From Methanosarcina sp. (lineage in GTDB: Archaea; Halobacteriota; Methanosarcinia; Methanosarcinales; Methanosarcinaceae): a stretch of 64,000 nucleotides of DNA. The notes beneath the pieces are model-generated. The model saw only the letters and a program-made list of their open reading frames with translations. It searched no databases and was not told where the DNA came from. The stretch is taken from NCBI GenBank assembly GCA_003164755.1, contig PLUB01000061.1:102-64101 (forward strand). The letters are read 5' to 3'. Position 1 is the first letter of the stretch; each line of letters opens with the position of its first letter. A program made the translations under genes and the position numbers. This document shows positions 9,611 through 54,065 of the stretch, piece by piece.

Positions 9611-9755
9611 TCTAAAGTGAACAGATAAAACAATAAGCTAAACAGAAATAAATATCGAAATTGTTGGTGTTGATCGAATAGAAATCAATCAACTGAATTT
9701 CGAATAACTAACAAAAACAACTTAAATAAATTTAATAATGAAGGAGTGAAATCAA

Positions 9756-10712: not shown

Positions 10713-10834
10713 TTGATGCAATCTATACTGCTATTGAACAGTTACATTTTTAATTGTTACTGAACCGAAATATATTCCTTAAAGATTATTGGTATTCTGT
10801 TAATATATAAAATTTTTAAAAGTTACTAAGGTCT

Positions 10835-11089
10835 AAAATCTAGTGATTTTTGGATTGATGAACTGAAGCATGAATTCTCAGGAGAAAGTGTTCGTCAATC
10901 AAACCTAAAATTGATACTACAAAGCTTCAATCATGAGGATATTTTCAAAAGATAGTATTCATTTCGAAATCTAGTGATTTTTTAGTTTTACACAATTACT
11001 TGATTTTGGTTGCCACCAGACTAGCAAAAAGTAGTGTGTCGTGAGCTTCAATTAGGCTATAGAAGACCTTTTCAAAAAAGACTATTCAT
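10835..11089 (+). repeat. two adjacent ~125-bp units with conserved ends
   Basis: Units 10835-10962 and 10966-11089 both start aaatctagtgattttt and end gcttcaat...ttttcaaaa.a.a.tattcat. Their middles differ. Confidence 0.4.
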
Positions 11090-11582
11090 GGTAAACTTCG
11101 AGAACAACTTCCAACCTCTTGATGCGATACCTTCCAATCCCTTAATATTGATAGATACCACAGATCATCTTTCATTTACAAGCTAATGATGTTTTTCAAA
11201 GATCATTATGCACCCCCTAAAATTACTTTTATTTTCTTACTTTTATATGATTCATGATTTTGAGTTCACAATCAAGAGCAATAAAAACTGTAGTTTAAAG
11301 TATATACTTCAGACAGTTGAGGCTTAAGTAGTACACATTTCTAAATTAAATCACACATATAATATAAAAAACTTCAACTTTTATTTTTAAATAATTATTT
11401 ATTCTGCATTTATCTATTTTCAGTTAGTTTATGCGATGATTACCCATATAGTTTAATATACTATTTGAGTATTTTAAAAAAATGAATCAAAATATTGGAT
11501 TAGATATTCTTCTTGTGCTCTCAGCGCCTCTTTTTATAGGCGGGATAATGAAGAATCGATAGAATACCTCAGGATCAGCTAT

Positions 11583-12638: not shown

Positions 12639-12675
12639 AATATCATCTCCGAGATTAGCAAAACAAAATATTAAA

Positions 12676-13150
12676 GAGAATTTTGATAAACTCATATGCA
12701 TTTGAGTATTGACAGTTCAAATATCTTAACAATTTTTGATACTAATAAAAAATGTTACTATTTTACTCTTAAAGAAGGATCAAAACATCTTCAGTCAGTT
12801 GTAGACAAACTTGATGAAATTGATTCCTTAATTGATTGGAAATCTGTTAGTATTATTTCTGAGTCCATAATTTTTAACAAAACCGTTTTCTGAGAAAGAC
12901 CTGAATCTGATGTAATCATTATGTTTAAAAGGCTCGTTTTATAGCAATGTCCTGGTCTTTCTGATTTTGAAATTGAGAAACAATGTACTGGTTGAATTTA
13001 GATCATGAAATTTCTTGGTTTTCCTGAATGCATACCATAAAGTACCACAGTCTGATAATTTAGAAAAAAAATATTGATAACTGTAAAGAAGGAGAAATAT
13101 GGTGATAGTTGTAAAGACACCTTAATTGCCTTGGTTTGGAAATATAAAGC
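12676..13150 (+). mobile_element. decayed left part of an IS5/IS1182-type element (copy D1)
   Basis: Starts gagaattttgataaac. From 12921 a single frame reads MFKRLVL*QCPGLSDFEIEKQCTG*I*IMKFLGFPECIP*STTV**FRKK, i.e. the LSDxExE...FLG...FR N-terminal transposase domain riddled with stop codons. Homologous to 34373..35001 and 58175..58707 (both reverse complement). Confidence 0.7.
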
Positions 13151-25844: not shown

Positions 25845-27062
25845 TTATTCAACCTTTCTAAGGATAGCTTCCCGGATAGACTCGATATTTGCATCCACCA
25901 CAGTAGGCTCCTCGCAAATCTCACTAACAGAAGATATATCCTTTAGAAGATGTCCTGTAGTGATGCATACCACGGTTTCATCTATATTTATCATGCCCAT
26001 TTTTACAAGTTTCCTAAGTCCTGCGACAGATGCTGCACTCGCAGGTTCGACACCAATACCTTCAAGCCTTGCAAGATCCTTCTGGGCTGTAAGAATTTCT
26101 TCGTCAGTAACTGACTCTGCAGTTCCACCGGATTCCCGTATTGCTCTGATAGCTTTTTTGGAGTTGACAGGGTTTCCAATCCTGATGGCTGTTGCAATTG
26201 TCTCAGGATTGCCTTCCGGAGTTATCTCTGGAGCTCCACTCTTTATAGCTTTTACAATGGGACAGGAACCTTCTGCCTGAATTCCGATCATCTTCGGAAG
26301 AGAATTCGTTATACCGAGTATCTTAAATTCCTTGAAGCCTTTATAAATAGCAGTAATATTCCCTGCATTCCCTATCGGAAGGACAACTCTGTCAGGCACC
26401 CTAAAACCTAGCTGATCTGCAATCTCAAAACCAATGGTTTTTTGACCTTCCAGTCTATAAGGATTGATTGAGTTTAAAAGGTAGATATTTTCCTGGTAGC
26501 AGAGAATACGCACAAGAGCAAATGCGTCATCAAAATTCCCACGGATGCTTAGGACCTTTGCCCCGTGCATCAAAGCCTGTGCAATTTTTCCAAGAGCTAC
26601 TTTCCCTGCAGGTAGCAACACAATTACAGGAACCCCTGCTTTTGCCCCATAGATCGCAAGAGCTGCAGAGGTATTCCCTGTAGATGCACAAGCAAATTTT
26701 TTCATTCCGAGTTCAAGCGCTTTCGTAACCCCAACTGTCATTCCCCTATCCTTGAAGGAGCCTGTTGGGTTCATGCCTTCGTGTTTTACGTACAGTTTTG
26801 TTATTCCTATCTTTTCGGCAAGACGGTCGCATTTGTAAAGAGGAGTACCCCCCTCTTTGAGAGTTACAGGCACCCTTTTTACAGGAAGAAGTTTTGCGTA
26901 CTTCCAGACCGAGGGACATTCAGTCTTTAGTTTATCCATATCAATCTCAATTGAGGAATAATTATAAATAACATCAAGCAGACCATCACATTTGCTGCAA
27001 GTATAGATTATTGCATCTTTGGAATACTCTGCATCGCATTCGATACATTTCAGAGAATACAT
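25845..27062 (-). CDS. thrC: threonine synthase
   Basis: 405 aa. PLP-lysine region NPTGSFKDRG, N-terminal Cys-rich segment, ASTGNTSAA motif. Confidence 0.9.
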   Translation of the reverse strand: MYSLKCIECDAEYSKDAIIYTCSKCDGLLDVIYNYSSIEIDMDKLKTECPSVWKYAKLLPVKRVPVTLKEGGTPLYKCDRLAEKIGITKLYVKHEGMNPTGSFKDRGMTVGVTKALELGMKKFACASTGNTSAALAIYGAKAGVPVIVLLPAGKVALGKIAQALMHGAKVLSIRGNFDDAFALVRILCYQENIYLLNSINPYRLEGQKTIGFEIADQLGFRVPDRVVLPIGNAGNITAIYKGFKEFKILGITNSLPKMIGIQAEGSCPIVKAIKSGAPEITPEGNPETIATAIRIGNPVNSKKAIRAIRESGGTAESVTDEEILTAQKDLARLEGIGVEPASAASVAGLRKLVKMGMINIDETVVCITTGHLLKDISSVSEICEEPTVVDANIESIREAILRKVE

Positions 27063-31357: not shown

Positions 31358-32521
31358 TCATAGTTTTTTTGCTTCCAAAGCCCGTTTAAAGCGTTTTGTA
31401 ACATCTTCTGGACTAAAGGGAATATTTGGAGCTTTTGTGTTTCCTGGCTTAAGGATTACATGGATGAATGAAAGTTCTTGAATGGCCCGAAACCTTCTGA
31501 AGGCCTCTATTATTCCTTCCCTGCTGTTTACTTTAGCCGTATTTTGGATTCCGCATGCTTTTGCAAAAATTTCTAGGTCAATATAGCGCAAAGCACATGT
31601 TTCCTGTGAACCTGTAGAGCCATAAGAACCATTATCAAGGCATATAATTATCAAGTTTTTAGTGGCTTCTTTTGCAGCTTCAAGAAGGGCATTAGGATTC
31701 ATCAACAAGCTTCCATCCCCATCAAAAACCACTACTATCCTTTCGGTGCGTAGTGCAAGGCCAAGTCCAATCGAGGAAACAAGCCCCATTGAACCAAACA
31801 TATAAAAATTGAGATCTCTGTCTTTGTAGGCATAAAGTTCCTTACAGGGGATTCCAAGATTTGTTACTGTAATTTCATCATCAAGTTGAGAAGCAACTGC
31901 GCAAATCGCCTCGTTCCTGATCACCAATGGCTTGATATCTTCCATCTTAAGGTTAAACCTGCATGTTCTTTCCATAACCTTCGATTTTTCTGGAATTCTG
32001 GCAGCTTTCCAGCTGCAGCAGCCAGAATCTTCCCATACTTTAGGTGAGATCAGAGCAATGTGAGGCCGTAAATTTTCAAAGGCATCTTTAATTACGTTTT
32101 CAAGGAGAGAGATCTTTTCAGCATCTTCAATTATTGTGTATTGCAGCTCTGCTCCATTGAGAATCGCTGGAAGGTGGACCCCAAGAGGCACTTGCGCTTC
32201 AATATATTCTCCATAAACTCCACGCCAGCTTGTAAGTACAGGTAATGGAATTTTGCATATTACATTTAAGGATTCTAGAGCGTTAATCATATTCCCAACC
32301 CCTGTGCTTTGAATCAGCATCATGGGTTTTCCACCTGCAAGGTAAGCCCCGGCACAAATACCCACTCCATTTTCTTCCCTAGTCAACCTGATTTCTGGAA
32401 AATTTTCCGAAACCAGAGGAAGCAGGTTTTTGATTCGGTCACAGGGCAAAGTTGCAGCAAGGTCTATACCTTCTTTTTTCATAATTGCTATAACTTCTTC
32501 TTCGGGACTTGCCATGCACAT
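31358..32521 (-). CDS. comDE: sulfopyruvate decarboxylase, fused alpha/beta subunits (coenzyme M biosynthesis)
   Basis: 387 aa. N-terminal ComD-like half and C-terminal ComE-like half with the TPP motif FDGDGSLLMNPNAL. The fusion is as known in Methanosarcina. Confidence 0.9.
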   Translation of the reverse strand: MCMASPEEEVIAIMKKEGIDLAATLPCDRIKNLLPLVSENFPEIRLTREENGVGICAGAYLAGGKPMMLIQSTGVGNMINALESLNVICKIPLPVLTSWRGVYGEYIEAQVPLGVHLPAILNGAELQYTIIEDAEKISLLENVIKDAFENLRPHIALISPKVWEDSGCCSWKAARIPEKSKVMERTCRFNLKMEDIKPLVIRNEAICAVASQLDDEITVTNLGIPCKELYAYKDRDLNFYMFGSMGLVSSIGLGLALRTERIVVVFDGDGSLLMNPNALLEAAKEATKNLIIICLDNGSYGSTGSQETCALRYIDLEIFAKACGIQNTAKVNSREGIIEAFRRFRAIQELSFIHVILKPGNTKAPNIPFSPEDVTKRFKRALEAKKL

Positions 32522-32588
32522 ACCTCTTCACTTTCTTTTTTATTCTATAGTCCTTGATTATTAGTGCTTGTTCTATAGTTCTCCACAC

Positions 32589-33835
32589 TCAGATATTTAG
32601 ATATTCTAAGGGGACATCTGGGTTTTTGGCATGAGCTACCGGGAGATCTGAAAAAGTGTGAAGTCCTCTTTTAGCCGCATGTACCCCCCACCTGCAATAT
32701 TTAGGAGAATGATATCCTCTGTCCCAATATTTCCGGTTTTTACAGCTTTTAACAGGGAACCTACAGCAACCGCGGATGGAGGCAGTATGTATCCCCTCCA
32801 GCGATTCGAAAAGGACCTTAGCCTCAAGGACTTCTTTTCTGGTAATTGCGTACATCACCCCATCAGTATCGACAAGTGCGTCGTAGAGTCCTCCTTTTAT
32901 GCCATAAGGTGGAGTCAGATTTGTAAGAACCGATGCATAAGTTTCCTCTATCTGTTTCTTAGAATCCTTCATATCAATCTCAGGAATAATTTCTCTTCTT
33001 TTTGCCTGCCAGGCATTATAGATGGGTACAAAAAGCAGGTTCTGAGCGAGCTGTAATTTCGGAAGTTTCTGCCCGAATCGTCCGTCGGCCCTTAAGCGTA
33101 AGGAGGCGTCCCATGCTGAAATTCCTCAGGTACCACTCCCTACTGCCTGAAAATAGTGATCAGGCATTTTTCCTATGGTTACCGCTGCATCCAGCATCAT
33201 AGTACCCATTCCATCTCTTCTGGCGACATTTCTCGCTCCGCCTTCAGGAACCATGCCAGGCAATTTTACAATCCTTCCTGCAAGGTTGATAGCATCAGTG
33301 TAATCGTTTCCGGTACCCATACTGATAAAATGAATAGATTCAGTTGGTTTTTCGGGCAGCTATAGACTTGAAATTCCTGAATATGGAACTACTATGTAGA
33401 CATCTATCCCTGTTAAAACCGATACATAAGCAAATGCCCTACCCCTATTTCCAGCAGAGGCAAGGACTATAGCTTTTCCACCGCTTTCTTTTAGAAGCTG
33501 CATGGTAGGGTAAGCTTCAAGCTCTTTGAAACTGCAGGTTTTGATAAAAGATCCTCTTTCAGGCAGTATCCGCTGAACCCTATGTGGAGGTTAGGAAGCC
33601 CGAATTCCCTGGCAAAGGCTTCACTTTTGTAAGTCATGGGTCCGGCATCCGTAGTAAGTTCTTCCTGAATCGGAAGCCAAGAATGAAACCTTCCCATTCC
33701 AAGCTGATTTCGCAGATCCAGCCTTTTTTCAAAATATTCCGCCCGCAAGATTGAGTCATCGTTCTCACAGGTAAGCCTGTAATGAGGACCATATTCTTTT
33801 CCGCACTTCATACATTTTATTTTGAATTTTCCCAT
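32589..33835 (-). pseudogene. cysteate synthase (threonine-synthase homolog of the Methanosarcinales CoM pathway) with five lesions
   Basis: MGKFKIKCMKCGKEYGPHYRLTCENDD...GFSGY, then a 1-nt loss near 33563 (tac tgc ctg for tac tgg cct). In-frame TAG at 33360-33362 (SSL*LPEKP). In-frame TGA at 33126-33128 (GSGT*GISAW). A compensating pair of frameshifts near 32790 and 32645 scrambles about 50 aa (true frame ILPPSAVAVGSLLKAVKTGNIGTEDIILLNIAGGG). Ends ...NPDVPLEYLNI. Confidence 0.8.
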
Positions 33836-34078
33836 TGCTATCAAAGCAAATTGGGTTTCTCTTGTTAAATATATATTCCTGAAATAGGAATAAAATTAAG
33901 CCAATAGGTTTTTCAAAAAGAATTAAGCTTCTAAACAATCAAATTGAGCTTTAATGAACATAGTTTTAACTTTTGCAGAGAGCACAGGATACTAAAAAAA
34001 GAAGAATGGAGTTTTGGAAAAAAAGATGCTTAAAGAATTATTTGGGAATTAATCGATATAAATGAATACACCACTTAC

Positions 34079-34200
34079 GCCGATGTACACAAGATTTCGA
34101 TCTATTTTCTCGATATGAAAGTAGCTTAAAAATTAATCTGACTCTCACTGAATAATAGTATGCAAATGAGAAAGAAAATTATATATCTGTATAAATTGAG
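34079..34200 (+). repeat. family B element, copy 5
   Basis: gccgatgtacacaagatttcgatc...gaaagtagcttaaaaattaatc...atatatctgtataaattgag. Confidence 0.6.
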
Positions 34201-34372: not shown

Positions 34373-35001
34373 CTAAGATTCTAAAATTGCGCGCCCCAAA
34401 CATATAATATTCTTTACATATAGAGGGTTTTCTGCATTCCCTTTTTTTGCTTCATTTTCTCGAGGTTTATCCGTTTTTGCATGTCCAGGATATGAATGGA
34501 TAAAAGTAGCATCTTGAATTATTCCCTTTTTTATTTTCAAAACAAAGCAATTAAATTGGCTTTGCAACTATCCCCATATTTATTCTTCTATGCAGTTCTC
34601 AATAATTTTCTTTCTTAATAATAAAATTGTGTTACTTTCTAGTATGTACTGAGGAAAACAAAGAAATTTCCTGATAGAAATTCAACCAGTACATTGTTTC
34701 TCAAGTTAAAAGTCAGAAAGACTATGTGTTGCTGTAAAATAAGTATTTTTAACATAATAATGATATCACTTCAGGTTTTCTTAATAAATTGTTTTGTTAA
34801 AATATATTAATTCAAAAATGATATGAAAAGACTTTCAATCAATAAAGAAGCAATTTAAACAAGATTGTCTCCAACTAACTGAAGACGGTTATATTCTTCT
34901 TTAAGAGCAAAATCAGTAAGAGCTTTCATAAGTAGAAATTATTGTCAAGAGATATATAAATCTCCAATGCCCAGATGCATAGGAATTTGTCGAAATTATC
35001 T
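34373..35001 (-). mobile_element. decayed IS5/IS1182-type element (copy D2, longest remnant)
   Basis: Reverse complement aligns with D1 from the terminus agataatttcgacaaattc onward. ORF 34373..34567 retains KKGIIQDATFIHSYPG, the first catalytic-region signature of IS5-type DDE transposases. Confidence 0.65.
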
Positions 35002-35043
35002 AAAATATGTGCAAATATGAAAAAAATATAGTGCCCTTATTTT

Positions 35044-35841
35044 TTAATATATATTTTGAAATTTTTCATTCATTAAAATACATGTAAGATAGTTTGCGGT
35101 TATCTGGAAAATCAGGATGAAAATCACCAACAATATAACATCCAGAAACGGTGAAAAAAGTGTTTTACCAGTATACGCATATTCAATCATATCATTTCCA
35201 TATGTTAGTGGTGATATAAGTGCAATCTCTTGACCGATATGAGACATTGAAGATATCGGAACAAAAACACCCGAGATAAAAATAAGAGGTAGTCTCACTG
35301 TATTAAGCATAGACATAACCTCCCCCCCATTCTCGGTAGGGTATGCAGCAAACAGTGTTCCAAGAGTCGCAAAACAGAATGCAGTGAGCATCATAGAAAT
35401 AACAAGTAAAAGTGTATTTGCAATAGGCGTACTGGAAAAGATAATACCGATTACAAGTGGAAAACATGCGATGCCTAGACTGTAGAAAAATCCACTCAGG
35501 CTCTCACCCACCACTAGTGAATACAGTGAAATCGGAGCAGCAAGCAATCGTTCAAAAGTTTTTACCTGCCTTTCGATAGGTATCGAAACCGGTTCTATTG
35601 ATGAAACCGAAAACAGAAGAGTAATCGAGATCAACCCCGGGATCAGGGGACCTGGAGATGTGTTCTTTCCAATAGCAAAGACCAGGAACATAACAAGCGG
35701 AAAGATAATACCTGAAACGATGACATGTGGCTTGAAGTAGTAGATCAACATGTCCTTTTTAGCAATTGCCCATGCAGCCGATATCCCACATGAAAGATGT
35801 TTTATCCATCTCGCATGATTAATAGATCGCATGGATTCCAT
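35044..35841 (-). CDS. ABC-2 type transporter permease
   Basis: Six-TM pattern, ...ERLLAAPISLYSLVVGE... typical of ABC-2 permeases. Likely start is ATG 35841 (MESMRS), overlapping the end of the ATPase remnant. Confidence 0.7.
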   Translation of the reverse strand: MESMRSINHARWIKHLSCGISAAWAIAKKDMLIYYFKPHVIVSGIIFPLVMFLVFAIGKNTSPGPLIPGLISITLLFSVSSIEPVSIPIERQVKTFERLLAAPISLYSLVVGESLSGFFYSLGIACFPLVIGIIFSSTPIANTLLLVISMMLTAFCFATLGTLFAAYPTENGGEVMSMLNTVRLPLIFISGVFVPISSMSHIGQEIALISPLTYGNDMIEYAYTGKTLFSPFLDVILLVIFILIFQITANYLTCILMNEKFQNIY

Positions 35842-35995
35842 CACCTGCACGCTGAAGACCAGTAAACTTGACAAATACATCCTCGAGGCCCGGACCAAGT
35901 GTCAAGATCAGAATAATTTTAAGATTATGCGCACACGCATAAGCTACTAAGGCATCAATAACCTTAGATGAATCTTCTGTATAGAGCTTAACCTT
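35819..35995 (-). pseudogene. C-terminal ~58-aa remnant of the cognate ABC ATPase
   Basis: KVKLYTEDSSKVIDALVAYACAHNLKIILILTLGPGLEDVFVKFTGLQ... (the LEDVF.K.TG ending of ABC-2 ATPases). Everything upstream is replaced by the repeat block 36031-36233. Confidence 0.6.
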
Positions 35996-36030
35996 TACAT
36001 TTGGTTAGTTATCTCATGAAACGAATTGGT

Positions 36031-36117
36031 ATTAAAGTATTGTTCGATATTAAAACATTTTATTGGAACTAAGTTTTATTCAGAAACTATTTTTTTTATA
36101 ATTAATTTAAAATGAAG
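36031..36117 (+). promoter_or_regulatory. promoter/leader module, orphan copy E5
   Basis: attaaagtattgttcgatattaaaacattttattggaactaagttttattcagaaactattttttttataattaatttaaaatgaag. No downstream gene on the + strand. Confidence 0.45.
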
Positions 36118-36146
36118 AAGTAAATAATTGCATATTGTAGTCCAAA

Positions 36147-36233
36147 GAGCATTTCATTAAACACCTAAAATTTATCAGATGCTTATAAATACTATATGGA
36201 AAACTCATGAAAATCATAGATTTATCGAAATCC
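36147..36233. mobile_element. family C MITE-like element, copy 6
   Basis: gagcatttcattaaac ... gatttatcgaaatcc. Confidence 0.55.
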
Positions 36234-36363
36234 TTTTAAAAATCTATATTAAATAGAGTGATAGCAGCTGGTATAATTTTTTTATTTCTTAACTCATTGA
36301 ATTTCTTCATAAAAGAGGATAAAAGGTTAATTAAAACCGATTGAAAGCTATAACAAATCTTCC

Positions 36364-36822
36364 CTATGTATAAAAGGTGTTAGGGGTAGAGTTTGTATTT
36401 AGGATATTCCTTCTTGTACCATCAGGATAAACAAGTGTAAGGATATCAGGCTGTATATCGAATTTTCGGGATTCATGCAAGTAGAACTGATCACTTTTCC
36501 GGGAAATATTTGACACAAGAAGTGAAGCACTATTACTTCTTATCTTAAGGATCTTTACATCACTGAAATCAGCAAAAATTTCTTTCATCTTGGGCTCCAG
36601 GTGCTTACTCCCAAAAAGGAATAGGTACGCTTCAGCGAAAGGGCTAAGATGGTATTCTACATGGACATTCCCATTAGACTTATTAAACTCGATTACCACA
36701 CTATCAATATGGATATATTTACCTTCCCTGAACTGATCCGTGTTAACTTCTTGAAATAATTTTGCAGCCAATAAAATAGCTGAGATGATAAGAGCAATTG
36801 CGATTATCAGTTTTGTTTCCAT
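36364..36822 (-). CDS. membrane-anchored protein, unknown function
   Basis: 152-aa ORF with an N-terminal TM helix (LIIAIALIISAILLAAKLF). No family recognised. Confidence 0.55.
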   Translation of the reverse strand: METKLIIAIALIISAILLAAKLFQEVNTDQFREGKYIHIDSVVIEFNKSNGNVHVEYHLSPFAEAYLFLFGSKHLEPKMKEIFADFSDVKILKIRSNSASLLVSNISRKSDQFYLHESRKFDIQPDILTLVYPDGTRRNILNTNSTPNTFYT

Positions 36823-39698: not shown

Positions 39699-42065
39699 AT
39701 GTCATTGAAAGAGTATAAATCCGGAACCACTTTTCCAGGCGTAATAGAGCGCACAGCGGACAAGTAAGAACCAGCCTGGCCAGAACCACTACGTGCTAAA
39801 GAGAATGCACCCAACATACTGTTCATTGTGCTGGACGATACAGGGTTTGGACAACTGGGGTGCTATGGCAGCCCTATCAAAATACCCAATCTGGACAGCT
39901 TGGCTGCTAATGGTCTTGCTTATAGCAATATGCATACTACTGCGCTATGCTCGCCTAGCCGCTCATGTATGCTTACCGGTCGAAACCACCATTCTAACAA
40001 CATGGCCTGCATTACCAGAGGGCTCAACCGGTTATCCAGGCTATAACGGGTAATATACCTTTTGAGAACGGCTTTTTGTCAGAGATGCTTCTGCAGCATG
40101 GTTACAACACCTATGCTATCGGCAAATGGCACCTGACACCTGCTAACCAAATATCGGCAGGTGGGCCTTATGACAGGTGGCCTTTGGGACGAGGTTTCGA
40201 ATGCTTCTACGGTTTTTTAGGAGCTGAAACAAACCAGTATTACCCTGAACTGATCTATGATAATCATTCCATAGACCCTCCCAAAACTCCAGAAGAAGGC
40301 TACACAATGAATGAGGATATAGTAAACAGGACTATCCAATTCATTGCTGACTCTAAACAAGTCACACCCAGCAAGCCCTTTTCCATGTATTTCTGTCCAG
40401 GAGCCATGCATGCCCTTCACCACATTCCTAAAGAATGGGCAGACAAATACAAAGGAAAATTCGATGACGGCTGGGAAGCTTATCGGAAGAGAACATTTTC
40501 CTGGCAGAAGGAATTTGGTATTATTCCAAAAGAAACAGAGCTGTCTCGCCATGATCCAGATGTCAAGCCCTGGGATCAATGCTCACCTGAAGAAAAGAAA
40601 ACTCTATGCCCGTATGATGGAGGTCTTTGCTGAGTTCCTAGAACACACAGACTACTACATTGGGAGACTATTGCAATTCTTGAAAGATGTTGATGAATTT
40701 GAGAATACGTTGATCATGGTAATTTCAGATAATGGAGCAAGTGCTGAGGGTGGTCCCACAGGACCAATTAACGAGTCCAGGTTTTTCAATAACGTGCCTG
40801 AATCTCTCGAGGAGAATCTCGCAGCTCTGGATAAACTTGGAGGTCCAGAGACTTACAACCATTATGCATGGGGCTGGACATTTGCTGGAAACACACCCTT
40901 TCGCCGCTGGAAACGAGAGACTTATCGCGGCGGCATCAGTGATCCCTTTTATAGTCCACTGGCCCAAAGGAATTAAAGCTAAAGGCGAGATTCGCACTCA
41001 GTATGCTCACGCTATCGATATGATACCTACAGTTCTAGAATGCTTGGGAATTGAGCCTCCGAAGATTATCAAAGGTGTAAGCCAATCGCCTATCGAGGGC
41101 GTAAGTTTTGCACATACCTTCGACGATGCCAGTACGCCTACCAGGCACCACACCCAGTACTTCGAGATGATGGGGCACCGCTCCCTCTGTATCATGATGG
41201 TTGGCGTGCCGTATGTCCATGGCCTGGTCCTTCTTTCACTGAAGCAGGAAAACCTTTTGGAGAACCAATTTCTGCAAATACATTAACTGAGCTTGATGCA
41301 AAAGGCTGGGAGCTTTATCATGTTGAGAAAGACTGGACAGAGAATTATAACGTGGCTGCAGAAAATCGGCCGAAGTTAATCGAGATGATTTCAATCTGGT
41401 ACACAGAGGCCGGGAAATATAATGTGTTGCCTATCGATGGTCGTGGGGTTCTGCGTGGTTTCTATTAACGGCCAAGTGTTGCAATTAATCGAACGCATTA
41501 TACCTATTACCCTGGAACTCAGGAAATCCCCGCAACTGTAGCAGTCAACATCCTCAACCGCTCGCATAGTATTTTAGCTGATGTTGAGATCCCTACAGGA
41601 GGAGCTGAAGGGATATTACTCTCTCATGGTGGTGTCGACGGCGGATATTCATTCTATGTTCAATACGGAAAGCTTCACTGGGCACACAACTACGTATCTA
41701 GGGCTTTATATCATATAGAGTCCAATGAGAATGTTCTTGAAGGGAGACATCAACTTGGCTTTGAGTTTGAGGTGACAGATAAGCCAGATATTGCTAATGG
41801 CAAGGGCTCACCTGGAATTGCTAAGCTTTTTATAGACAGAAAATTAGTCGGCCAAACTGATGTATCGGTGACTACTCCACTTTCATTAGGGCTAACTGGC
41901 GGAGTTAACCTGTGGGTCAGCTCCATAGGTCACCAGTCACACCTGGACTACCAGCCTCCCTTGGGGGAGTTCACAGACAAGATCTATAACATGATTGTGG
42001 ATGTCAGTGGCCAGCTGATAGAAGACAAAGGAGCTGAGATGCATATTGCCATGGCCCGCCAATGA
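39699..42065 (+). pseudogene. arylsulfatase (formylglycine type), at least seven disruptions
   Basis: ggagg-ATG(39699). In-frame TAA at 39765-39767. NILFIVLDDTGFGQLGCYGS, sulfatase signature ALCSPSRSCMLTGRNHH, GKWHLTP, VISDNGAS and YRGGISDPF are spread over ORF-track pieces 39828.., 40076.., 40344.., 40732.. and 41772..42065 in changing frames. Confidence 0.8.
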
Positions 42066-42427: not shown

Positions 42428-44521
42428 ATGAAAATGACATCCTCGGATAAACGTAGAAAACAAGCAATTTGTATTGCATCACTACTCTGCCTAATCAGTT
42501 TTTTGCTACTGATATATGTGGGATATGAGTACAAAAGTAGCAAGACAAATGAAATAATTATGGAAGATGCAAAGAACGATGCGCTTCAAAAAGCCAAGTC
42601 TGCTATAAAAAAATTAATCTGGAAGTTAATTCCACGAGCTCCCTTGTTTATGAATTGCAAAGATCTGAGTTCCGGAAAACTGGGTAATGATTCCCGGCTC
42701 AAGGAGCGTCTTCTGGCTGAAATGAAAAACAATTCCAACATTTTTAGCATCGTCGTTGCATATTCCCCTGCTTTAAATGCTGGGAAGCTTTATGCACCTC
42801 ATTTTAAGAGAAACGGTTCAGAAATCTGATATGATCCACTCACATATGACTACACGAAGGATAGTGAACCAACGGCATGGTACAATGATACCCTGAAAAA
42901 AGAATCCAAAGTATGTATTTCGCCTTATTTCGGAATTGCAGATCGCAATTTTCAGATCGATTATTCGGCTCCTTTTTATCTTGCAGAATTAGGGAATGGG
43001 GACAAAGTTGCTGGAGTGGTAAGTGTAAGTCACTCTCTTGAAGGAATAAGAACGAAGCTAGGTAGCCTCAACATAGGAAATACGGGTTATGGTTTCATGA
43101 TCACTGGGAAATGAATAATTATTCTTATCCTATCCAAGAGTATCTGACCAAAAATATTAACGATCTTGCAAAAAAAGATCTCAATCTTGACTTCATAAAC
43201 AATAACATAAAAAAGCACGATTACTGGGCAACAAATTCCCTTACAGGAAAATCCTACTGGGTATTTCAACAAAATATTCCTTCTACAGATTGGATCATGG
43301 GGTTCGTTCTCCCGCAGGAAGAAACCCTGCTGAACAGAAAAACAGAGCAAACTCACTCTATTATTTTTGTAGTTTCCGCAACGTTTGCTTTTTTATTCTT
43401 TCTATGCCTGCTTTTTGTATCAATTTACAGGTATGACCATACAAGGGCTCTGGATGCTCGCGGTTATTTTTTCATTACTTTGTATCCTGAGGATAGGCTT
43501 TATGTGGCACCTTACTATGAATAATTCCTCTCTTGATGGCAGGAATGGAGACCTTGTTGTTTTCGACAGGGAGATGTTGAAACGGTTTTGCAGCACGTTG
43601 ATACGAGTCCGACAACTCCAAGAATTCCTACATGATTTTTTCTTCAGTCCATGGAATTCTTGAATGCTAATGATGTCTTAATAACCGGATCGATTTGGCA
43701 AAATATTTCAAGCCTAGGAGCTTGGAAAGAGTTTCCTGACTTTAGATTTCCAGATTCAAAAGAAACTACAATTGAAAAAATCTATATTAATAAGGATAAA
43801 GGTGTCACAGGCTGGCGTTTTAAGACTAATTTGCACCAGCAGTTTGATTATTCCAAATATCCTTTTGACAAGGAAGATGTAAGGATTAGAGTATTGAATA
43901 ATAATTCTGCAGAAAGCGTCTTGGTTCCGGATTTTGATTCCTATAATACCTTGATTCCAGAGAGTTTACCTGGTTTGGGACGCTCTTTCATGCTTGATGG
44001 TTGGAAACCGTGAAAAACCTTTTTCAGTTACAGGGTTGATTCTAATAATACCAATATTGGGTTAGGTAACTTTGCAAATTCCAATACATCCAAATTTTAT
44101 TTCAACGTCGATATTCAGAGGGACCTTAAATCTCCCTATCATTCTGATCTTCTACTCGTAATGGTAGTACTCATTCTTCTGTTTGCAGTCCTTACGATAA
44201 TTACCAAGGGTGAAAACAAAACTCATTTTGGGTTCAGTTCTCATGGAGTCCGGGGCTACTGCACCTTAATTCGTTTTACTCTTATCATTGCCCACTCTTC
44301 TCTAGAGCTCGAATTCCCATAGGCTGGAGAATATACCTTGATATTTCTACTTTGTAATGTACATTGCAATCTTGGTTGTTTCCTTGAATTCAATCGTTTT
44401 TGCGTCAAATCGGAGTGTCCCCTTTATTGATACAAAAGACAACATGTACGTGAAGGTTCTGTACTGGCCTGTAATCATGGGAATTCTGCTGTTAATCACA
44501 TTCTTAAACTTCTATCGATAG
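42428..44521 (+). pseudogene. Cache-domain-fused pentameric ligand-gated ion channel (Cys-loop receptor family) homolog, about eight disruptions
   Basis: N-terminal TM, then a Cache-like region (...SIVVAYSP..YAPHFKRNGSEI-TGA(42827)-YDPLTYDYTKD..WYNDT..ISPYFG..IDYSAPFY..GVVSVSHSLEGIRTKLGSLNIGNTGYGFMITG / YPIQEY..TGKSYWVFQQNIPSTDWIMGFVLPQEE), two TM segments, then an ECD-like region with DYSKYPFDKEDVRIRV (FPFDxQ-like loop), pre-M1 IQRDLKSPYHSDLLLVMVVLILLFAVL, M3-like IYLDI/FYFVMYIAILVV and M4-like VLYWPVIMGILLLITFLNFYR-TAG(44519-44521). Confidence 0.5.
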
Positions 44522-44580
44522 GTATATGCCACGGTTTCTATCATGATCTCTGACATACTCACTACGGTCACAAAATAATC

Positions 44581-44730
44581 GGTTCCGTTGCAAAAAATCT
44601 GGCTCCCTTGCAAAATCAGAAAAAACCTTCACAATTAGGAAAGTTAATCATTTTCATTAGAAAGACAATGACACATAAAGGTTAAAATTATAGTGTAAAA
44701 ATGCAGAAATATTTTTTTTGCAACGGAACC
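44581..44730 (-). mobile_element. 150-bp MITE, family A, copy 2
   Basis: ggttccgttgcaaaaaatctggctcc ... attttttttgcaacggaacc. Reverse complement of the 8497..8646 copy. Sits between the channel pseudogene end and the ModA fragment. Confidence 0.8.
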
Positions 44731-44751
44731 CTATTTTAATAGTCCCTGGTT

Positions 44752-44964
44752 TTAAGTCTTTGAATCGGTTATATATACAAAACCTGCATCTTCTTCTCCT
44801 CTGTTCACGTATAACAATGCTTGTTTGACATCTTCAGCAAGTACAGCTTTATTTTTTAACTGACTCCACAAGCCATTCTCAGTTAGTGCAATAAGTGAAT
44901 ATTCACCTACTGAAACAGTATCTGGGTTTCCAATGCTTATTTTTTGAATATTAGGATTAGTCAT
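44752..44964 (-). pseudogene. internal fragment of a molybdate/tungstate ABC substrate-binding protein (ModA-like)
   Basis: KISIGNPDTVSVGEYSLIALTENGLWSQLKNKAVLAEDVKQALLYVNRGEEDAGFVYITDS matches the C-terminal lobe pattern of ModA. No N-terminal two thirds. Ends 22 nt from the MITE. Confidence 0.55.
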
Positions 44965-47698: not shown

Positions 47699-48747
47699 TC
47701 AGTAATCGACTTGGTCTGTTTCTTTTATCTTTTCCTTAAACAGAGTATATACCCACAGCTGGTAGAAAATGACTATGGGCACGAATACCAATGCTCCTCT
47801 CAACATGATGCTCAATGTCTTGTGGCTTGATGCTGCCTCAAAGATATCTATTCCGTATTCCAGAGAAACAGAGGACTTAAGCATGTAAGGATAGATACTT
47901 GCAAGCCCGCTTTGAAGAACGAAAAGAAGCGCAAAGAGATTGCTGCAAAAGGCCAGGAACCCCTTTTCCTTTTTGCAAAGAACACAGCAAGGACAGCTGA
48001 CACTACTGAAAGAACTGGCAATAAGTACAGAGCTGGCGTGGCTGAATAGTTGGTTGTAAAACCTTCTATCCCTCCAAAGGAATATGCCAGATAGATCAGA
48101 GCAAGTACAAGTACAATAAGAGTGCTCTTCTTTGCTAGATCACCTGCTTTTACAGCTATGGCACCCTCGGTCTTGACATTGATCCAGAGTGCACCTGAAG
48201 TAACACTCATAAGCGCGAACAAGACACCGCCTATCAATACATATGGGCCAACAAGTCCAAGAAGGGTACCATTATAAACTCCTCCTGCAGCTATTTCAAG
48301 CCCCTTGAAGAAGTTCGTAAATGCAACTCCCAAGACCAGAGAGATCAGCAGACTTCCAACGAACCATCCCCAAATAAGTACTTTCTGTATCTGGGGATTA
48401 TCATCCTTGTGGAGGTATTCCACGGAAATGCCCCTTGTGACCAGGCCGATGAGCAGCAACATCATAGGAAGATACAGGAAAGTAAACATCTTCGAGAATA
48501 CCAAAGGGAATGCAGCAAATGTTCCACCTGCAGCCAGGATGAGCCATACCTCATTACCGCCCCAGAAAGGACCCACAGATCTCTGGATTTGTATCCTCTG
48601 CACTTTATCTGTTGCAATAAAGGGTGCCAAAAGACCTGCTCCAAGGGAAAATGAGTCTACAATGAAGTAAACTCCCCATATTACACACCACAGGAAGAAC
48701 CAGATAACAGCAAGCATATCATGAGCAAGGAAATCGAACATCTTCAC
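47699..48747 (-). pseudogene. cydB: cytochrome bd ubiquinol oxidase subunit II with one frameshift
   Basis: ORF 47848..48747 (GTG start in a GTGA overlap with the cydA stop) carries the body. The conserved C-terminus ...EKGFLAFCSNLFALLFVLQSGLASIYPYMLKSSVSLEYGIDIFEAASSHKTLSIMLRGALVFVPIVIFYQLWVY is in another frame (47699..47884). The shift is in the run gcaaaaaggaaaagggg near 47965. Confidence 0.8.
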
Positions 48748-50057
48748 TCAACTCCTGTCGCATTGACTACGGTTTTCTTTATGAGGTATATCTCAAAGAC
48801 CATCAGGATCAGAAAGACTGCGCTGATAAGGACAACACTTAACAACACATCTGATGGGGAACCGATGATATACCATTAGCTGTCTTTAGCAGACCATATA
48901 CCAGCCATGGCTGCCTTCAGATCTCAGTTACATTCCAGCCAGCAACGATGGCTATGAATGGGAGTGGAATCGACCACATCAATAGCTTCAGATACTTATC
49001 CGATGTGTACAGCTTGCCTGACTTTTGAAGATATGAGCCGACAAGAGCCTCTATGATAAACATGAATCCCAGAATTGTCATCAGCTTGAAGCTCCAGAAT
49101 ACCATTTCTACAGGTGGTAATTCATCCTGAGGTAGCTGGTTAAGTCCTGTTATCGTTCCGCTGAAACTTCCTGTATACAGGAAACTTGCAAGACCTGGAA
49201 TTCCTAGCAACTGAACACTATTAGAACCAGTGCTTGAATCCGGTACCTGTATCAGCTACATGGGCACTGAGGGACCTGTTTCCCATATCGCATCCATTGC
49301 CGCTCCTTTAGCAGGCTGAAGCTCGGTAACATATTGTGCATAACCGTGACCAAGAACTGGAAGCATGACGCAGTAGTGAGTGCTATGGTAACTGCTATGC
49401 TGAAAGACTTCTTGAACACTTCATTGTTGTTCCTTTTAAGGAAATGAGATGCACAGATTCCCATGATCAGGAATGCGGTCAACAGGTAAGCTGAAAGCAG
49501 AGTATGTACCAGCATATACCCCACATATCTGTTTGTAAGTAGAGCAAAGAAATCTGTCATAACCACCTTGCTCCCATTAGCAGCCATCTCATAACCTACG
49601 GGATTCTGCATAAAACCGTTTGCAGTGATAATCCATATGAAGATATGTTAGTACCCAGAGCGACCATCCACATGGAAAATGCCTTTAGTTTCTGACGGTT
49701 GCGATCCAAGAATATCCATGCGCCAAAGAAAGTACCTTCAAGGAAGAAAGCAAATAATGCTTCTATAGCTAAAGGTGGTCCAAAGACATCTCCCATGAAT
49801 TCCGCATAGGCACCCCAGTTCGTACCGAACTGGAAAGTCATTGCAAGACCTGATACTAGGCCTATTGCAAAGTTTATCTTGAATATCCTACCCCAAAAGT
49901 CGGCCATCTTTCGCCAAGTTTCATCTTTGTTCTTGTAGTATACCGTTTCCATGCCTGCCACTAACAGTGCGAGTCCCAATGTTAGTGGAACGAATAGGAA
50001 ATGGAACGCAACTGTTATGGCAAACTGAAGTCGGCTTAATAAAAGCAATTCAACCAT
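48744..50057 (-). pseudogene. cydA: cytochrome bd ubiquinol oxidase subunit I, at least three frame changes
   Basis: MVELLLLSRLQFAITVAFHFLFVPLTLGLA... (49596..50057), then WIITANGFMQNPVGYE... (49252..49611), then ...LLGIPGLASFLY...IVAGWNVTEI (48917..49210), then GRQPWLVYGLLKTA... to TGA 48744-48746. Confidence 0.85.
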
Positions 50058-51813: not shown

Positions 51814-54065
51814 TCAGTCGATTCGCAGGCGCGCGTACACCGCGAGCTTGATGGAATCCATCGCCAGGGTGAAGACAATAGTCGTCGCGACGAGCAGTGT
51901 TATCATGATTATCGGAAGCGAGCTCATCAATACACCTCCAGCGGCGAGAGAAGCGACCAGGAGGACATCCCAGAGTGAGGCCAGCAGCATTATCGGCGCG
52001 GGACGTGAGCTCCATAGACGCCCGTGCTCCCGCAACACATAGCTGTTTCCCTGGCCGGCGAAGACGAGCATCGTGAAGGTCAACGTTTGCATCTCGCCGG
52101 GGCTAAGGCGTAGCCAGTACCAGCCGACGCCGAGCACCGCTACCAGATAAAGAAGCCTGAAAGAACCGAGGGGAACCGCGGCGAGCGTAAGGTTTCGCAC
52201 GCGCCAGGCATTCGGGTAGGGAGACGGCCGCGCCCGGTCCGCCGTGCGCGCCATCGTCGCGAAGTCGTTGGTGATCATCGAAAGCGCTTGCAAAAGCGGT
52301 GTCAGAACCGCGTGCCCGGTGATAATCAGCCCCGCGCCGAGCACGATGAGCGTCACGCATTTGTTGATAAGGATCGTCAGCGTGTAGGTCAGAATGCGTT
52401 GGAACGCGGATCTCCCTTCCTTGATGCAGGCGACGATTCCGCCGAGGCCAGGTTCGGTCAGCACGACGCCCGCCGCGGCTTTCGCGACATCTGTAGCGGT
52501 CGAAACGGCGATGCCCATTGGCGCCGTCGCCGCACATGCCGACCGCATGCCCATGCTGCTGAAACGCTTTGACCAGGTGAAACTTCTGCTCCGGGAAAAT
52601 GCCGGCGTAGACGGCGAAGTCCTTCGGCTCGACGCTCGCGGGAACGTCGCCCGGCGGATAAACTGGCCCAGTGAGCCCGATCTCACGTGCGACGGTCGTC
52701 GCGGTAGCGGCCGCGTCGCCGGTGAGCATGACCGTGAGCACGCCGAGCGAGCGCAACTCGGTCAGCAATTCCGCCGAATCGGCGCGCGGAGGATCGCTGA
52801 ACGCAATGAACCCGATCAGTTCCAGTGCGTCGCTCGGCCCGGCAGCCACGGCGATCGTCCGATATCCAGCCAAGTTGAGCGTTTCGAGTTCCTTCTCGGA
52901 CGCCGGCGTCATCGGTGCGACCGTCGCGATGACGGCCGGCGCGGCCCGGGCCCTTGGCCGCCTCCACCGTCCGGATGACGGAATCTATCGGGTCCTGGCC
53001 TTCCGATGAACTCGCCAGCGCGGCAAAGCCGATGACGTCCGAAGCGTCGCAGCCCGGCTTCACCGGCCGAATCGCGCTCACGACCAATTCATTTTGGGTC
53101 AGCGTGCCGGTCTTGTCGCAGCAGATAACATCGACTATGGCCGCTTCGTTCAGCGAAGACAGCCGAGTTAGCAGCACGCCCTTCAAGGCGAGCGTTCGCG
53201 CGCCCAAAGCAGCGGCGAGCGTGAATGTCGCCGGCAGAGCGACGGGCACCGCCGACAGCAACGCCGTCAGGACGAGCAACAGGATCTGCTCGAAGCTGAT
53301 CCTGACCGCGAATGCATAAGCCACGAGCCCAGCGACAATGACGAAATTGATCACCGTGAGATTGCGAACGACGCTGAGCACGGCCTTCTGCTCGGCGCTA
53401 TCGATGTGGGCGACGCTGACCAGCTCCGCCGTCCGTCCGAAATAGGTGCGCGTTCCCGTCGCCGTTACCCGCGCAATTGCCGCGCCGCGACGAACGAGGC
53501 CGCCAGCGAAGGCGGTCTTTCCGCTCTCCATTTCGATTGGGATAGATTCGCCGGTCAGCATGGATTGATCGAGCAACAGCGAGCCGTCGACGATGAGGAC
53601 ATCTGCCGGAACGACTTCCCCGAGCGAAACCTGGACGATATCGCCGGGAACTAGGTCGGCCGCCGGGCCATCAACCCAAACGCCGTTGCGCCTGACGCGC
53701 GACATCAATGTCAGGCGCCGCTTGAGAAGCGCCAAAGCGGCGTCTGCGCGACTTTGCTGAAAGTCGGCGAGCAGGACGTTGAAGAGGAGCAGCCCCGCGA
53801 TCATCGACGCCGTAAGCCACTGGCCCAGGAAGATTTGCAGGCCTATCGTCACCTCGAGCATCCACGGCACCGGCGCCCAGAAATGGCGAGCGAATCTCCC
53901 GAGAGGAGGGATCGATTCCTCGATGACGGCGTTCGGACCGAATTCTGCTCGAAGGGACGCGGCTTGGGCCGACGACAGCCCGGCGAGTCCTCCCTCATCG
54001 TGCGCCACTGTTTCTTGCAAGGGCATACTCATTTCGACGGCCTTACCTAAGCCGGCATTTTCCAT
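51814..54065 (-). pseudogene. P-type ATPase of plasma-membrane H+-ATPase (P3A) type, two frame breaks, within the high-GC island
   Basis: LTGESIPIE (TGES), CCDKTGTLT (DKTGT) and MLTGDAAATA (TGD) are present. The hinge reads GDGAN then jumps frame to MGIAVSTATDVAKAAAGVVLTEPGL, so the universal GDGxNDxPAL motif is cut short. Three ORF-track pieces: 52683..54065, 52103..52912, 51814..52686. Confidence 0.85.

What the first reader, a model, noticed from the sequence alone, without database searches (positions are those of the whole stretch)
32589..33835. Cysteate synthase is inactivated next to an intact comDE
In Methanosarcinales, coenzyme M is made via cysteate synthase (a ThrC homolog), an aminotransferase and ComDE. 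Here comDE (31358-32521) is intact, but the adjacent cysteate synthase carries five lesions: a 1-nt loss (~33563), an in-frame TAG (33360-33362), an in-frame TGA (33126-33128), and a compensating frameshift pair (~32790 and ~32645) that scrambles the C-terminal domain. For a methanogen this implies a second copy, another sulfopyruvate route, CoM scavenging, or errors in the assembly.
Basis: partly seen in the sequence, partly recalled or inferred. Interest (0 to 1): 0.65.

Follow-up and report, generated by a model that had tools for sequence, protein, structure and literature searches.

The report
Dead cysteate synthase, live second copy
The cysteate synthase gene beside comDE in this uncultured peat Methanosarcina really is a dead but still transcribed pseudogene, and the same organism almost certainly carries a second, intact and more strongly expressed copy elsewhere, so coenzyme M synthesis is probably not lost.

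Summary
Window 32589-33835 (minus strand) is a cysteate synthase gene (TIGR03844, 618 bits when read through). Against intact orthologues it carries five disabling lesions:
- a 1-nt deletion at 33563/4
- TGG>TAG at 33360-62
- GGA>TGA at 33126-28
- a 2-nt deletion at 32790/1
- a 1-nt deletion near 32643

These are not assembly errors. The exact sequence occurs in contigs from at least 12 independent peat, permafrost and bioreactor metagenomes and in metatranscriptome contigs. A sister-species MAG shares the TAG and has further lesions of its own.

An intact cysteate synthase (about 82% aa identity) follows a pst operon, with no comDE beside it. It co-occurs with the pseudogene at about 1:1 depth in all 12 runs (r=0.96). 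It sits in the same MAG as the pseudogene in the sister species. Two gene-conversion tracts in the pseudogene came from it, and its RNA depth is 2-10 times higher. It groups with a different Methanosarcina clade, which suggests an acquired copy displaced the native one.

comDE is intact, under purifying selection, and co-transcribed with the pseudogene. This is an ordinary kind of event that is well documented here. The window holds several other broken genes.

The parts
32589..33835 (-). Cysteate synthase pseudogene. This is the native, comDE-linked copy. Its read-through product is 416 aa.
   Evidence: Three-frame translation. Alignment to intact orthologues L001, L002 and L064. TIGR03844 cysteate_syn scores 618 bits against a cut-off of 324.9 on the read-through. 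The read-through is 90% aa identical to intact 416-aa proteins.
33563..33564 (-). Lesion 1: a 1-nt deletion (the G of TGG in GYWPERG) that causes a frameshift.
   Evidence: The paralogue unitig carries the extra base here.
33360..33362 (-). Lesion 2: TGG (Trp) to TAG. The sister-species remnant L060 has the same change.
   Evidence: The paralogue unitig has TGG (33361 T>C on the + strand).
33126..33128 (-). Lesion 3: GGA (Gly) to TGA. L060 has TGT at this codon, so the G>T change at the first base is shared.
32790..32791 (-). Lesion 4: a 2-nt deletion (GATAGAC becomes GAT--AC) that causes a frameshift. It is specific to the window lineage.
32641..32644 (-). Lesion 5: a 1-nt deletion in a C run, which restores the frame after about 49 scrambled codons. 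It is specific to the window lineage.
33200..33410 (-). Gene-conversion tract 1. The sequence is paralogue-like: 92-97% identical to L015 against 73-80% to orthologue L001. L060 shares this tract.
   Evidence: Sliding-window identity. Shared 31-mers and summed depth in the unitig graph.
33550..33700 (-). Gene-conversion tract 2. The sequence is paralogue-like: 92-96% identical to L015 against 77-89% to L001.
31358..32521 (-). comDE, a fused sulfopyruvate decarboxylase. It is intact, lies 67 nt downstream of the pseudogene and is co-transcribed with it.
   Evidence: TIGR03845 scores 218.9 bits and TIGR03846 scores 240.5 bits, both above cut-off. dN/dS against L001 is 0.13. RNA contigs span 32350-32687, across the junction.
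33836..33880 (-). Upstream region with an A/T-rich TATA-like box (aatatatattt, about 33866-33876). It is the inferred promoter that still drives the pseudogene-comDE transcript.
   Evidence: This is inference from the sequence. RNA contigs begin at about 33822-33830, with zero RNA depth from 33916 onward.
34376..36339 (.). A stretch of about 2 kb that is absent from orthologous loci L002, L003, L005 and L006. It separates the MA3296-like ORF (36364-36822) from the cysteate synthase, and it contains an ABC-2 permease gene (35044-35898, minus strand) and a high-copy repeat (34042-34175).
   Evidence: BLAST breakpoints. Pfam. A depth spike of 72-460 against about 10.

Best explanation
The comDE-linked cysteate synthase of this uncultured peat Methanosarcina is a true pseudogene whose job has passed to a second cysteate synthase gene elsewhere in the same genome.

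The second copy is an intact ORF of 416-421 aa. It lies downstream of a pstSCAB cluster and sulfate-assimilation genes, with no comDE next to it. It groups with cysteate synthases of a different Methanosarcina clade (barkeri/spelaei-like). This suggests it was acquired, or is an old paralogue, and then displaced the native copy.

Both copies sat in one genome long enough for two gene-conversion tracts to be copied into the native gene. The native gene then took a TAG, and probably the TGA, before two sister species split. After that it decayed independently in each.

It remains as a transcribed relic because it lies between a still-active promoter and comDE, which is intact and under selection.

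The inferred pathway is: phosphoserine plus sulfite is converted to cysteate by the paralogue, an aminotransferase makes sulfopyruvate, and ComDE from this locus makes sulfoacetaldehyde.

Shown here: the lesions and their reality, the existence, intactness and transcription of the paralogue, the co-occurrence, and the mosaic structure.

Inferred: the two loci lie on one chromosome, the paralogue is enzymatically active, the transfer went from another clade, and the pseudogene persists as the comDE leader.
For: Lesions against intact orthologues.

Independent confirmation:
- The pseudogene unitigs show 0 differences in 12 metagenome runs and in RNA contigs.
- The sister-species MAG MFD01223.bin.2.83 has a comDE-adjacent remnant, L060, that is 95.7% identical in nucleotides. 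It shares the TAG and the G>T at the TGA codon, and adds a 5' truncation and two further TGA codons of its own.
- That same MAG holds the intact second copy, L015.

The peat runs carry an L015-type copy:
- It is collinear with L015 over 9311-11988, with no indel inside the ORF.
- Its upstream non-coding 30-mer matches only L015.
- It is identical to the Stordalen scaffold L065 and protein P0121, an intact 421-aa ORF. The N-terminal 313 nt have 0 mismatches, and 40 of 40 listed SNPs agree.

Depth: the paralogue-to-pseudogene ratio is 0.68-1.38 (geometric mean 1.04, Pearson r=0.96) over 12 runs spanning 2.5x to 22x. Four of those runs were chosen for holding the paralogue, not the pseudogene.

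Mosaic identity shows two conversion tracts.

Selection: dN/dS is 0.10-0.13 between functional copies, 0.31 for window against L001 outside the tracts, 0.56 for window against L060, and 0.13 for comDE.

Phylogeny: the paralogue sits in another clade.

RNA: paralogue contigs are 2-10 times deeper than pseudogene contigs in the same libraries.

Family assignments.

Literature: deleting cs (MA3297) makes M. acetivorans a CoM auxotroph (PMC12068725), so a methanogen needs a working copy or external CoM.
Against: - No single contig or read joins the two loci, so residence in one genome rests on depth co-variation, binning in a sister species and gene conversion.
- Contig k-mer depth is a coarse measure of abundance and a poor one of expression.
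- The complete paralogue sequence for the window's species comes from one Illumina scaffold, L065. That scaffold carries a 6-nt in-frame deletion and a stop-codon loss (7 extra residues) that other runs may not share.
- The pst and ATP-sulfurylase genes beside the paralogue are themselves fragmented, so this lineage is losing genes, and the activity of the paralogue is untested.
- The dN/dS values rest on few substitutions (13 synonymous and 14 non-synonymous for window against L001).
- The tree is a quick neighbour-joining tree on 195 residues without support values.
Confidence: 0.85

Rival explanations
1. The pseudogene is real, but the intact L065/L015-type gene belongs to a different, co-occurring Methanosarcina. 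On this reading the window's organism makes no cysteate and lives as a CoM (or cysteate/sulfopyruvate) auxotroph that scavenges from neighbours.
For: No physical link between the two loci was obtained. The paralogue groups with another Methanosarcina clade. The genome shows other gene decay. Natural CoM auxotrophs are mentioned in PMC12068725.
Against: The depth ratio is about 1:1 (0.68-1.38, r=0.96) over 12 runs from many studies, including a bioreactor. Both loci are binned in one MAG in the sister species. Two conversion tracts require the copies to have shared a cell. The divergence between L065 and L015 (95-96%) mirrors that between the window and L060 (95.7%). An intact comDE under selection (omega 0.13) would have no use without a source of sulfopyruvate.
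Confidence: 0.08
2. The lesions are sequencing or assembly artefacts, for example long-read homopolymer errors, and the real gene is intact.
For: Related MAGs of the MFD series may be long-read assemblies (my recollection, not checked here). L064 shows three +1 insertions with no nonsense codon, which could be such errors.
Against: Two of the five lesions are substitutions to stop codons. Unitigs with 0 differences recur in 12 independently sequenced metagenomes and in Illumina metatranscriptomes. Within the read-supported stretch, the only intact version is a separate sequence about 7-19% divergent, with its own flanks. A sister species shares the TAG.
Confidence: 0.02
3. The gene is still expressed as protein through recoding, with pyrrolysine inserted at TAG (Methanosarcina decodes UAG), read-through of TGA and programmed frameshifts. 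Alternatively, its 117-aa N-terminal ORF has a function of its own.
For: Methanosarcina has the Pyl machinery (general knowledge). The locus is transcribed, and its 5' part reaches 47-60x in RNA contigs.
Against: Five separate recoding events would be needed. None of the sites is conserved: orthologues have TGG and GGA and no indels, and L060 has a different set of lesions plus a 5' truncation. dN/dS is raised. Conserved motif residues have changed, for example AGNTGRA to AGNRGRA and VPDSG to VPYSG.
Confidence: 0.03

Closest known systems
Cysteate synthase MA3297 (EC 2.5.1.76; TIGR03844) with comDE MA3298 in Methanosarcina acetivorans
   Same: It belongs to the same family, has the same 416-aa length and keeps the same gene order: cs followed by comDE, with an MA3296-like ORF upstream. 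The cs-comDE linkage was found in essentially every Methanosarcinaceae locus fetched that had enough flank. Deleting cs gives CoM auxotrophy (PMC12068725), and MA3296-98 is treated as one operon (PMC12713407).
   Different: Here the comDE-linked copy is disabled by five lesions. About 2 kb has been inserted between it and the MA3296-like ORF. The working copy appears to lie at a different, pst-linked locus without comDE.
Gene displacement by a paralogue or acquired copy, followed by pseudogenisation of the native copy
   Same: There are two homologous copies in one genome. The native copy decays once redundant. The incoming copy groups with another clade. Conversion tracts run between the copies. 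Lesions are shared across a speciation event and then diverge.
   Different: The native copy is an operon partner of a gene that is retained (comDE), so the relic is still transcribed. The replacement copy seems to have lost its own comDE. Compare L032, where pstCAB-cs-comDE are together. This suggests, but does not prove, reciprocal loss between two clusters.
Threonine synthase (ThrC, TIGR00260), the ancestor family of cysteate synthase
   Same: It shares the PLP fold-type II and the PALP domain. A thrC gene lies 5.5 kb away in the window (25845-27062).
   Different: The neighbour scores 364 bits on thrC but only 100 bits on cysteate_syn, whose cut-off is 324.9. It is therefore threonine synthase and not a back-up cysteate synthase.

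Membership tests
Cysteate synthase (TIGR03844 equivalog) | The sequence matches the curated equivalog model above its cut-off. | tested here: met
   The read-through translation scores 618.4 bits against a cut-off of 324.9. The paralogues score 644.5 (L015) and 634.6 (P0121).
Cysteate synthase (TIGR03844 equivalog) | An uninterrupted ORF of about 416 aa able to give a full-length enzyme. | tested here: not met
   The gene has two in-frame stops and three frameshifting deletions. It is a pseudogene of the family, not a functional member.
Cysteate synthase (TIGR03844 equivalog) | The PLP-binding lysine motif is conserved (TCSFKELEA in Methanosarcina homologues). | tested here: met
   The motif is present in the frame-corrected sequence and in all aligned homologues. 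The role of the lysine is taken from general knowledge of the ThrC family.
Cysteate synthase (TIGR03844 equivalog) | Genomic linkage to sulfopyruvate decarboxylase comDE. | tested here: met
   comDE starts 67 nt downstream on the same strand. The linkage was seen in essentially all Methanosarcinaceae loci with enough flank. The paralogue L015/L065 lacks it.
Cysteate synthase (TIGR03844 equivalog) | Catalyses O-phosphoserine plus sulfite to L-cysteate. | not testable with these tools
   This needs an enzyme assay or complementation of an M. acetivorans cs deletion.
Pseudogene made redundant by a functional paralogue | The disabling lesions are real, that is, reproduced in independent data. | tested here: met
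   Contigs from 12 metagenome runs and 4 RNA runs show 0 differences.
Pseudogene made redundant by a functional paralogue | Lesions are inherited across related lineages, with further independent decay. | tested here: met
   L060 shares the TAG and the G>T at the TGA codon, and adds a 5' truncation and two new TGA codons. The window's 2-nt and 1-nt deletions are absent from L060.
Pseudogene made redundant by a functional paralogue | Relaxed selective constraint. | tested here: inconclusive
   Omega is 0.31 (window against L001) and 0.56 (window against L060), compared with 0.10-0.13 for functional pairs. The direction is as expected, but the counts are small.
Pseudogene made redundant by a functional paralogue | An intact copy exists in the same genome. 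| tested here: inconclusive
   Support is strong but indirect: 1:1 depth in 12 runs (r=0.96), both loci in one sister-species MAG and gene-conversion tracts. No physical linkage was obtained.
Sulfopyruvate decarboxylase ComDE | Fused alpha and beta subunits that match the equivalog models, in an intact ORF under purifying selection. | tested here: met
   TIGR03845 scores 218.9 against a cut-off of 147.95, and TIGR03846 scores 240.5 against 221.5. The ORF is 387 aa with no gaps against L001 or L060, and omega is 0.13.
Programmed recoding (Pyl at UAG, or programmed frameshift) | The recoding sites are conserved among relatives. | tested here: not met
   All orthologues have sense codons and no indels at the five sites. 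The sister lineage has a different set of lesions.

The most novel reading that the evidence does not exclude
The lineage once held two complete cs-comDE clusters: the native one and a pst-linked one like that of L032. It then resolved the redundancy reciprocally. The native locus kept comDE and lost cs, and the pst-linked locus kept cs and lost comDE, splitting an otherwise universally linked operon across the chromosome. The dead cs is kept only as the transcribed leader and promoter carrier for comDE. This would be taking place in a peat Methanosarcina lineage with unusually heavy pseudogene load and low coding density.
Probability: 0.3. Interest if true: 0.45.

Novelty: new member of a known kind. 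Interest (0 to 1): 0.3.

Why it matters
For annotation and metabolic modelling, a pipeline that sees a broken cysteate synthase beside comDE would wrongly call this abundant peat and permafrost methanogen a CoM auxotroph, or would "repair" the gene as an assembly error. The evidence says the pathway is most likely complete, using a displaced copy at another locus.

It is also a clean, datable example of operon-partner replacement in an archaeon. Lesions are shared across a speciation event, gene-conversion tracts are visible, and the relic is still transcribed.

Finally, it flags that this peat Methanosarcina lineage carries many broken genes and repeats. That may matter for interpreting its ecology in thawing permafrost. 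The phenomenon itself is ordinary evolutionary biology.

Tried and rejected
- **Paralogue among the first hits.** I looked for it among the 120 best hits to the read-through protein. None matched the alternative unitig (best 95 of 102 residues), because those hits are orthologues of the native copy. The orthologous loci (L001-L006) are syntenic and comDE-linked, so they are not the second copy.
- **GTDB representative genomes.** The scan did not contain the window's own genome. The best matches were 95-96% identical, so same-assembly proof of two copies was possible only for the sister species.
- **comDE remnant after the paralogue.** tblastn found none in L015 down to E=10.
- **The neighbouring 405-aa PLP enzyme as a substitute.** It is thrC.
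- **Rfam scan of the window.** It found no RNA family at gathering thresholds.
- **Shared dispersed repeats.** L065 and the window share repeats at only 76-83% identity, which is too generic to prove a common genome.
- **comA, comB and comC.** I did not scan for them. The Pfam-annotated ORFs of the window include none, and no sequence outside the window and the fetched loci was available.

Full report
**1. What is at the coordinates**

The minus strand of 32589-33835 encodes a ThrC-like PLP enzyme broken into four reading-frame segments with two internal stop codons. I read it through by frame correction and put Trp and Gly at the two stops. The result is 416 aa. It matches the NCBIfam equivalog for cysteate synthase (TIGR03844) at 618 bits against a cut-off of 324.9. 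It is 87-90% identical to intact 416-aa cysteate synthases of uncultured Methanosarcina and 81-83% identical to those of cultured species. The organism is therefore a Methanosarcina. The window has 37.4% G+C, and its sequence is found in peat, permafrost and bioreactor metagenomes.

**2. The lesions**

I aligned the DNA to the intact orthologous loci L001 (95% nt identity), L002 and L064. The lesions are:
- a 1-nt deletion between 33564 and 33563 that destroys GYWPERG
- TGG>TAG at 33360-62
- GGA>TGA at 33126-28
- a 2-nt deletion between 32791 and 32790
- a 1-nt deletion in the C run at about 32641-32644

comDE (31358-32521) is intact at 387 aa. It matches both sulfopyruvate decarboxylase subunit models and has dN/dS of 0.13 against L001.

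**3. The lesions are real**

Contigs from twelve metagenome runs belonging to many studies contain the pseudogene version with zero differences. Metatranscriptome contigs do too.

A GTDB representative MAG of a sister species (MFD01223.bin.2.83) has locus L060, which is 95.7% identical to the window. It carries a comDE-adjacent remnant of the same gene. The remnant shares the TAG and has TGT where the window has TGA. It lacks the window's 2-nt and 1-nt deletions. It has its own 5' truncation (upstream of window position ~33437) and two extra TGA codons. So inactivation began before the two species split and continued independently in each.

dN/dS rises from 0.10-0.13 between functional copies to 0.31 for window against L001 outside the converted tracts, and to 0.56 for window against L060. 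The counts are small.

**4. A second copy**

In every run the assembly graph forks inside the gene. Beside the 382-nt pseudogene unitig there is a 383-nt unitig at similar depth that has TGG instead of TAG and restores the missing base. At lower stringency, that alternative path continues into unitigs of 2402 nt and 9213 nt that are only 81-85% identical to the window.

Its N-terminal 102 residues form an open frame. They fit none of the top orthologues well, but they match 98 of 102 residues of L015, a second cysteate synthase locus in the same sister-species MAG that holds L060.

The peat contigs lie collinearly on L015 from 9311 to 11988 at 95-96% identity, with no indel inside the ORF. Their upstream non-coding sequence matches only L015.

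A protein search with L015 found P0121, a 421-aa protein encoded on a Stordalen Mire scaffold (L065). L065 has zero mismatches to the reconstructed N-terminal 313 nt and reproduces 40 of 40 listed SNPs. L065 is therefore the paralogue of the window's own species, as an intact ORF. It does carry a 6-nt in-frame deletion and a stop-codon loss that adds 7 residues.

**5. Same genome?**

The paralogue-to-pseudogene depth ratio is 0.68-1.38 (geometric mean 1.04; Pearson r=0.96) over 12 runs with depths from 2.5x to 22x. Four of these runs were selected for holding the paralogue rather than the pseudogene.

The pseudogene is also a mosaic. In 33200-33410 and 33550-33700 it is 92-97% identical to L015 but only 73-89% identical to its own orthologue L001. 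Elsewhere it is about 97% identical to L001 and 72-87% to L015. L060 shares tract 1. Gene conversion requires the two copies to have been in one cell.

Together with the co-binning in the sister species, I put residence in the same genome at about 0.9. No single molecule linking the two loci was seen.

**6. Origin and context of the paralogue**

cs-comDE linkage holds in essentially all Methanosarcinaceae loci fetched that had enough flank. L015 is the exception: it follows pstSCAB and precedes a PAS fragment, a ThiS-like gene, an ATP-pyrophosphatase-like gene, cysE and cysK. No comDE remnant is detectable there.

One other genome, L032 (UBA8098), has pstCAB-cs-comDE together. This hints that the pst-linked locus once had its own comDE.

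In a neighbour-joining tree of the unconverted C-terminal half, the paralogue (L015 and L065) falls among barkeri/spelaei-type sequences. The pseudogene falls with the peat clade L001, L002, L004, L005 and L006. This favours acquisition from another Methanosarcina, or an old paralogue, followed by displacement of the native gene. The direction and timing are inferences.

**7. Expression**

In four peat and permafrost metatranscriptomes, the RNA contigs are identical to the pseudogene, lesions included. Contigs bridge the pseudogene's 3' end into comDE (32350-32687). RNA depth is zero from 33916 onward, upstream of the gene. So the relic is transcribed from its own upstream region together with comDE.

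Paralogue contigs are deeper in the same libraries:

| Library | Comparison | Paralogue | Pseudogene |
|---|---|---|---|
| X27 | homologous 383/382-nt unitigs | 123.7 | 59.2 |
| X27 | 3' halves | 47.9 | 10.2 |
| X24 | all contigs | 125-350 | 8-60 |

Contig depth is only a rough proxy for expression.

**8. Comparison with what is known**

In M. acetivorans, cs (MA3297) and comDE (MA3298) deletions both give CoM-dependent growth (PMC12068725). MA3296-98 is handled as one operon with a native upstream promoter (PMC12713407).

The window keeps that architecture, but with cs dead and about 2 kb inserted (34376-36339) between the MA3296-like ORF (36364-36822) and cs, compared with L002, L003, L005 and L006. 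The nearby 405-aa PLP enzyme is threonine synthase.

The case is a new instance of a familiar process: a native gene is displaced by a second copy and then becomes a pseudogene. It is not a new kind of system.

**9. Wider context**

The window contains at least four more apparently broken genes:
- a sulfatase in three frames, 40076-41286
- cydA in at least two pieces, 49252-50057
- a P-type ATPase, about 51814-54065
- a truncated Na+/H+ exchanger, 55771-56391

Four independent runs reproduce this 16.5-kb stretch almost without difference.

ORFs of 100 aa or more cover 45% of the window. For most other Methanosarcina at the same locus the figure is 55-78%, and peat-clade relatives are similarly low. 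Beside the paralogue in L065, the pstS, pstA and pstB genes and the ATP sulfurylase gene are fragmented, although they are intact in L015.

So the dead cysteate synthase is one item in a lineage-wide pattern of gene decay. This tempers any reading of it as special.

**10. Verdict**

Assembly error is excluded. Auxotrophy or scavenging and recoding are unlikely. The finding is ordinary in kind but well resolved, and I score interest at 0.3.

Noticed in passing
window 40076-41286 (+): A sulfatase gene is split over three overlapping reading frames (Pfam Sulfatase profile positions 84-201, 200-268 and 248-301). It is probably a frameshifted pseudogene. The homologous gene in sister-species locus L060 (about 5245-6140) is also fragmented.
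   Followed up: partly
window 47848-50057 (-): Cytochrome bd oxidase. cydB (47848-48747) looks whole, but cydA is split into at least two ORFs (49596-50057 covering profile 1-136, and 49252-49611 covering 145-228, with perhaps 48917-49210 as well). A single 2.7-2.8 kb unitig with 0 differences covers the region in four independent metagenomes, so the breaks are real.
   Followed up: partly
window 51814-54065 (-) and 55771-56391 (-): A P-type cation ATPase appears frameshifted: the E1-E2 part lies in a 460-aa ORF and the hydrolase part in an overlapping 269-aa ORF. A Na+/H+ exchanger ORF covers only profile positions 21-228 of 375.
   Followed up: partly
window 34042-34175 and 44408-44958; also 8497-8651 vs 44577-44730: There are short high-copy dispersed repeats. 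Unitig depth jumps to 72-460 and 335-728 where the flanks are about 10-22, which implies tens of copies per genome or community. A 155-nt copy pair within the window is 92% identical. A further repeat family of about 470 nt lies at 12668-13148, 34528-35008 and 58248-58713 (74-77% identity).
   Followed up: no
window 34376-36339: About 2 kb is present here but absent from orthologous loci L002, L003, L005 and L006. It lies between the MA3296-like ORF and the cysteate synthase gene and carries an ABC-2 permease gene (35044-35898). In L060 the corresponding interval holds a different 185-aa ORF. This locus has been rearranged repeatedly.
   Followed up: partly
L064 10001-11251 (MAG MFD01476.bin.2.7): The comDE-linked cysteate synthase of another peat-clade MAG has three +1 insertions but no nonsense codon and well-conserved residues. 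It is either an independent young pseudogene or the product of sequencing indel errors. This was not resolved.
   Followed up: no
L065 2729-7909 vs L015 5093-8806: In the window's species, the genes just upstream of the intact paralogue are fragmented: ATP sulfurylase, pstS, pstA and pstB. The sister-species locus L015 has intact pstSCAB. This is further evidence of lineage-specific gene decay.
   Followed up: partly
L065 9097-10362: The Stordalen allele of the paralogue has a 6-nt in-frame deletion (it loses Ile-Gly after NQPG) and TGA>TTA at the stop, which adds 7 residues. The unitigs of other runs show no deletion there. This is population-level variation in the working copy.
   Followed up: partly
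L015 11838/11841 vs peat runs; L065 10929-11637: The peat population has a 707-nt insertion downstream of the paralogue, relative to L015. It encodes a DUF1670 protein and is flanked by a high-depth repeat (about 100x against 22x).
   Followed up: no
L032 (Methanosarcina sp. UBA8098) 1-5119: This is the only fetched genome with pstCAB directly upstream of a cs-comDE pair. It is the arrangement expected for the ancestor of the pst-linked paralogue locus.
   Followed up: partly
whole window and loci L002, L005, L064: The peat clade has the lowest G+C (36-37%) and the lowest coverage by ORFs of 100 aa or more (38-54%) among about 30 Methanosarcinaceae loci around the same genes (most others are 55-78%). 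No Rfam family was found in the window.
   Followed up: partly
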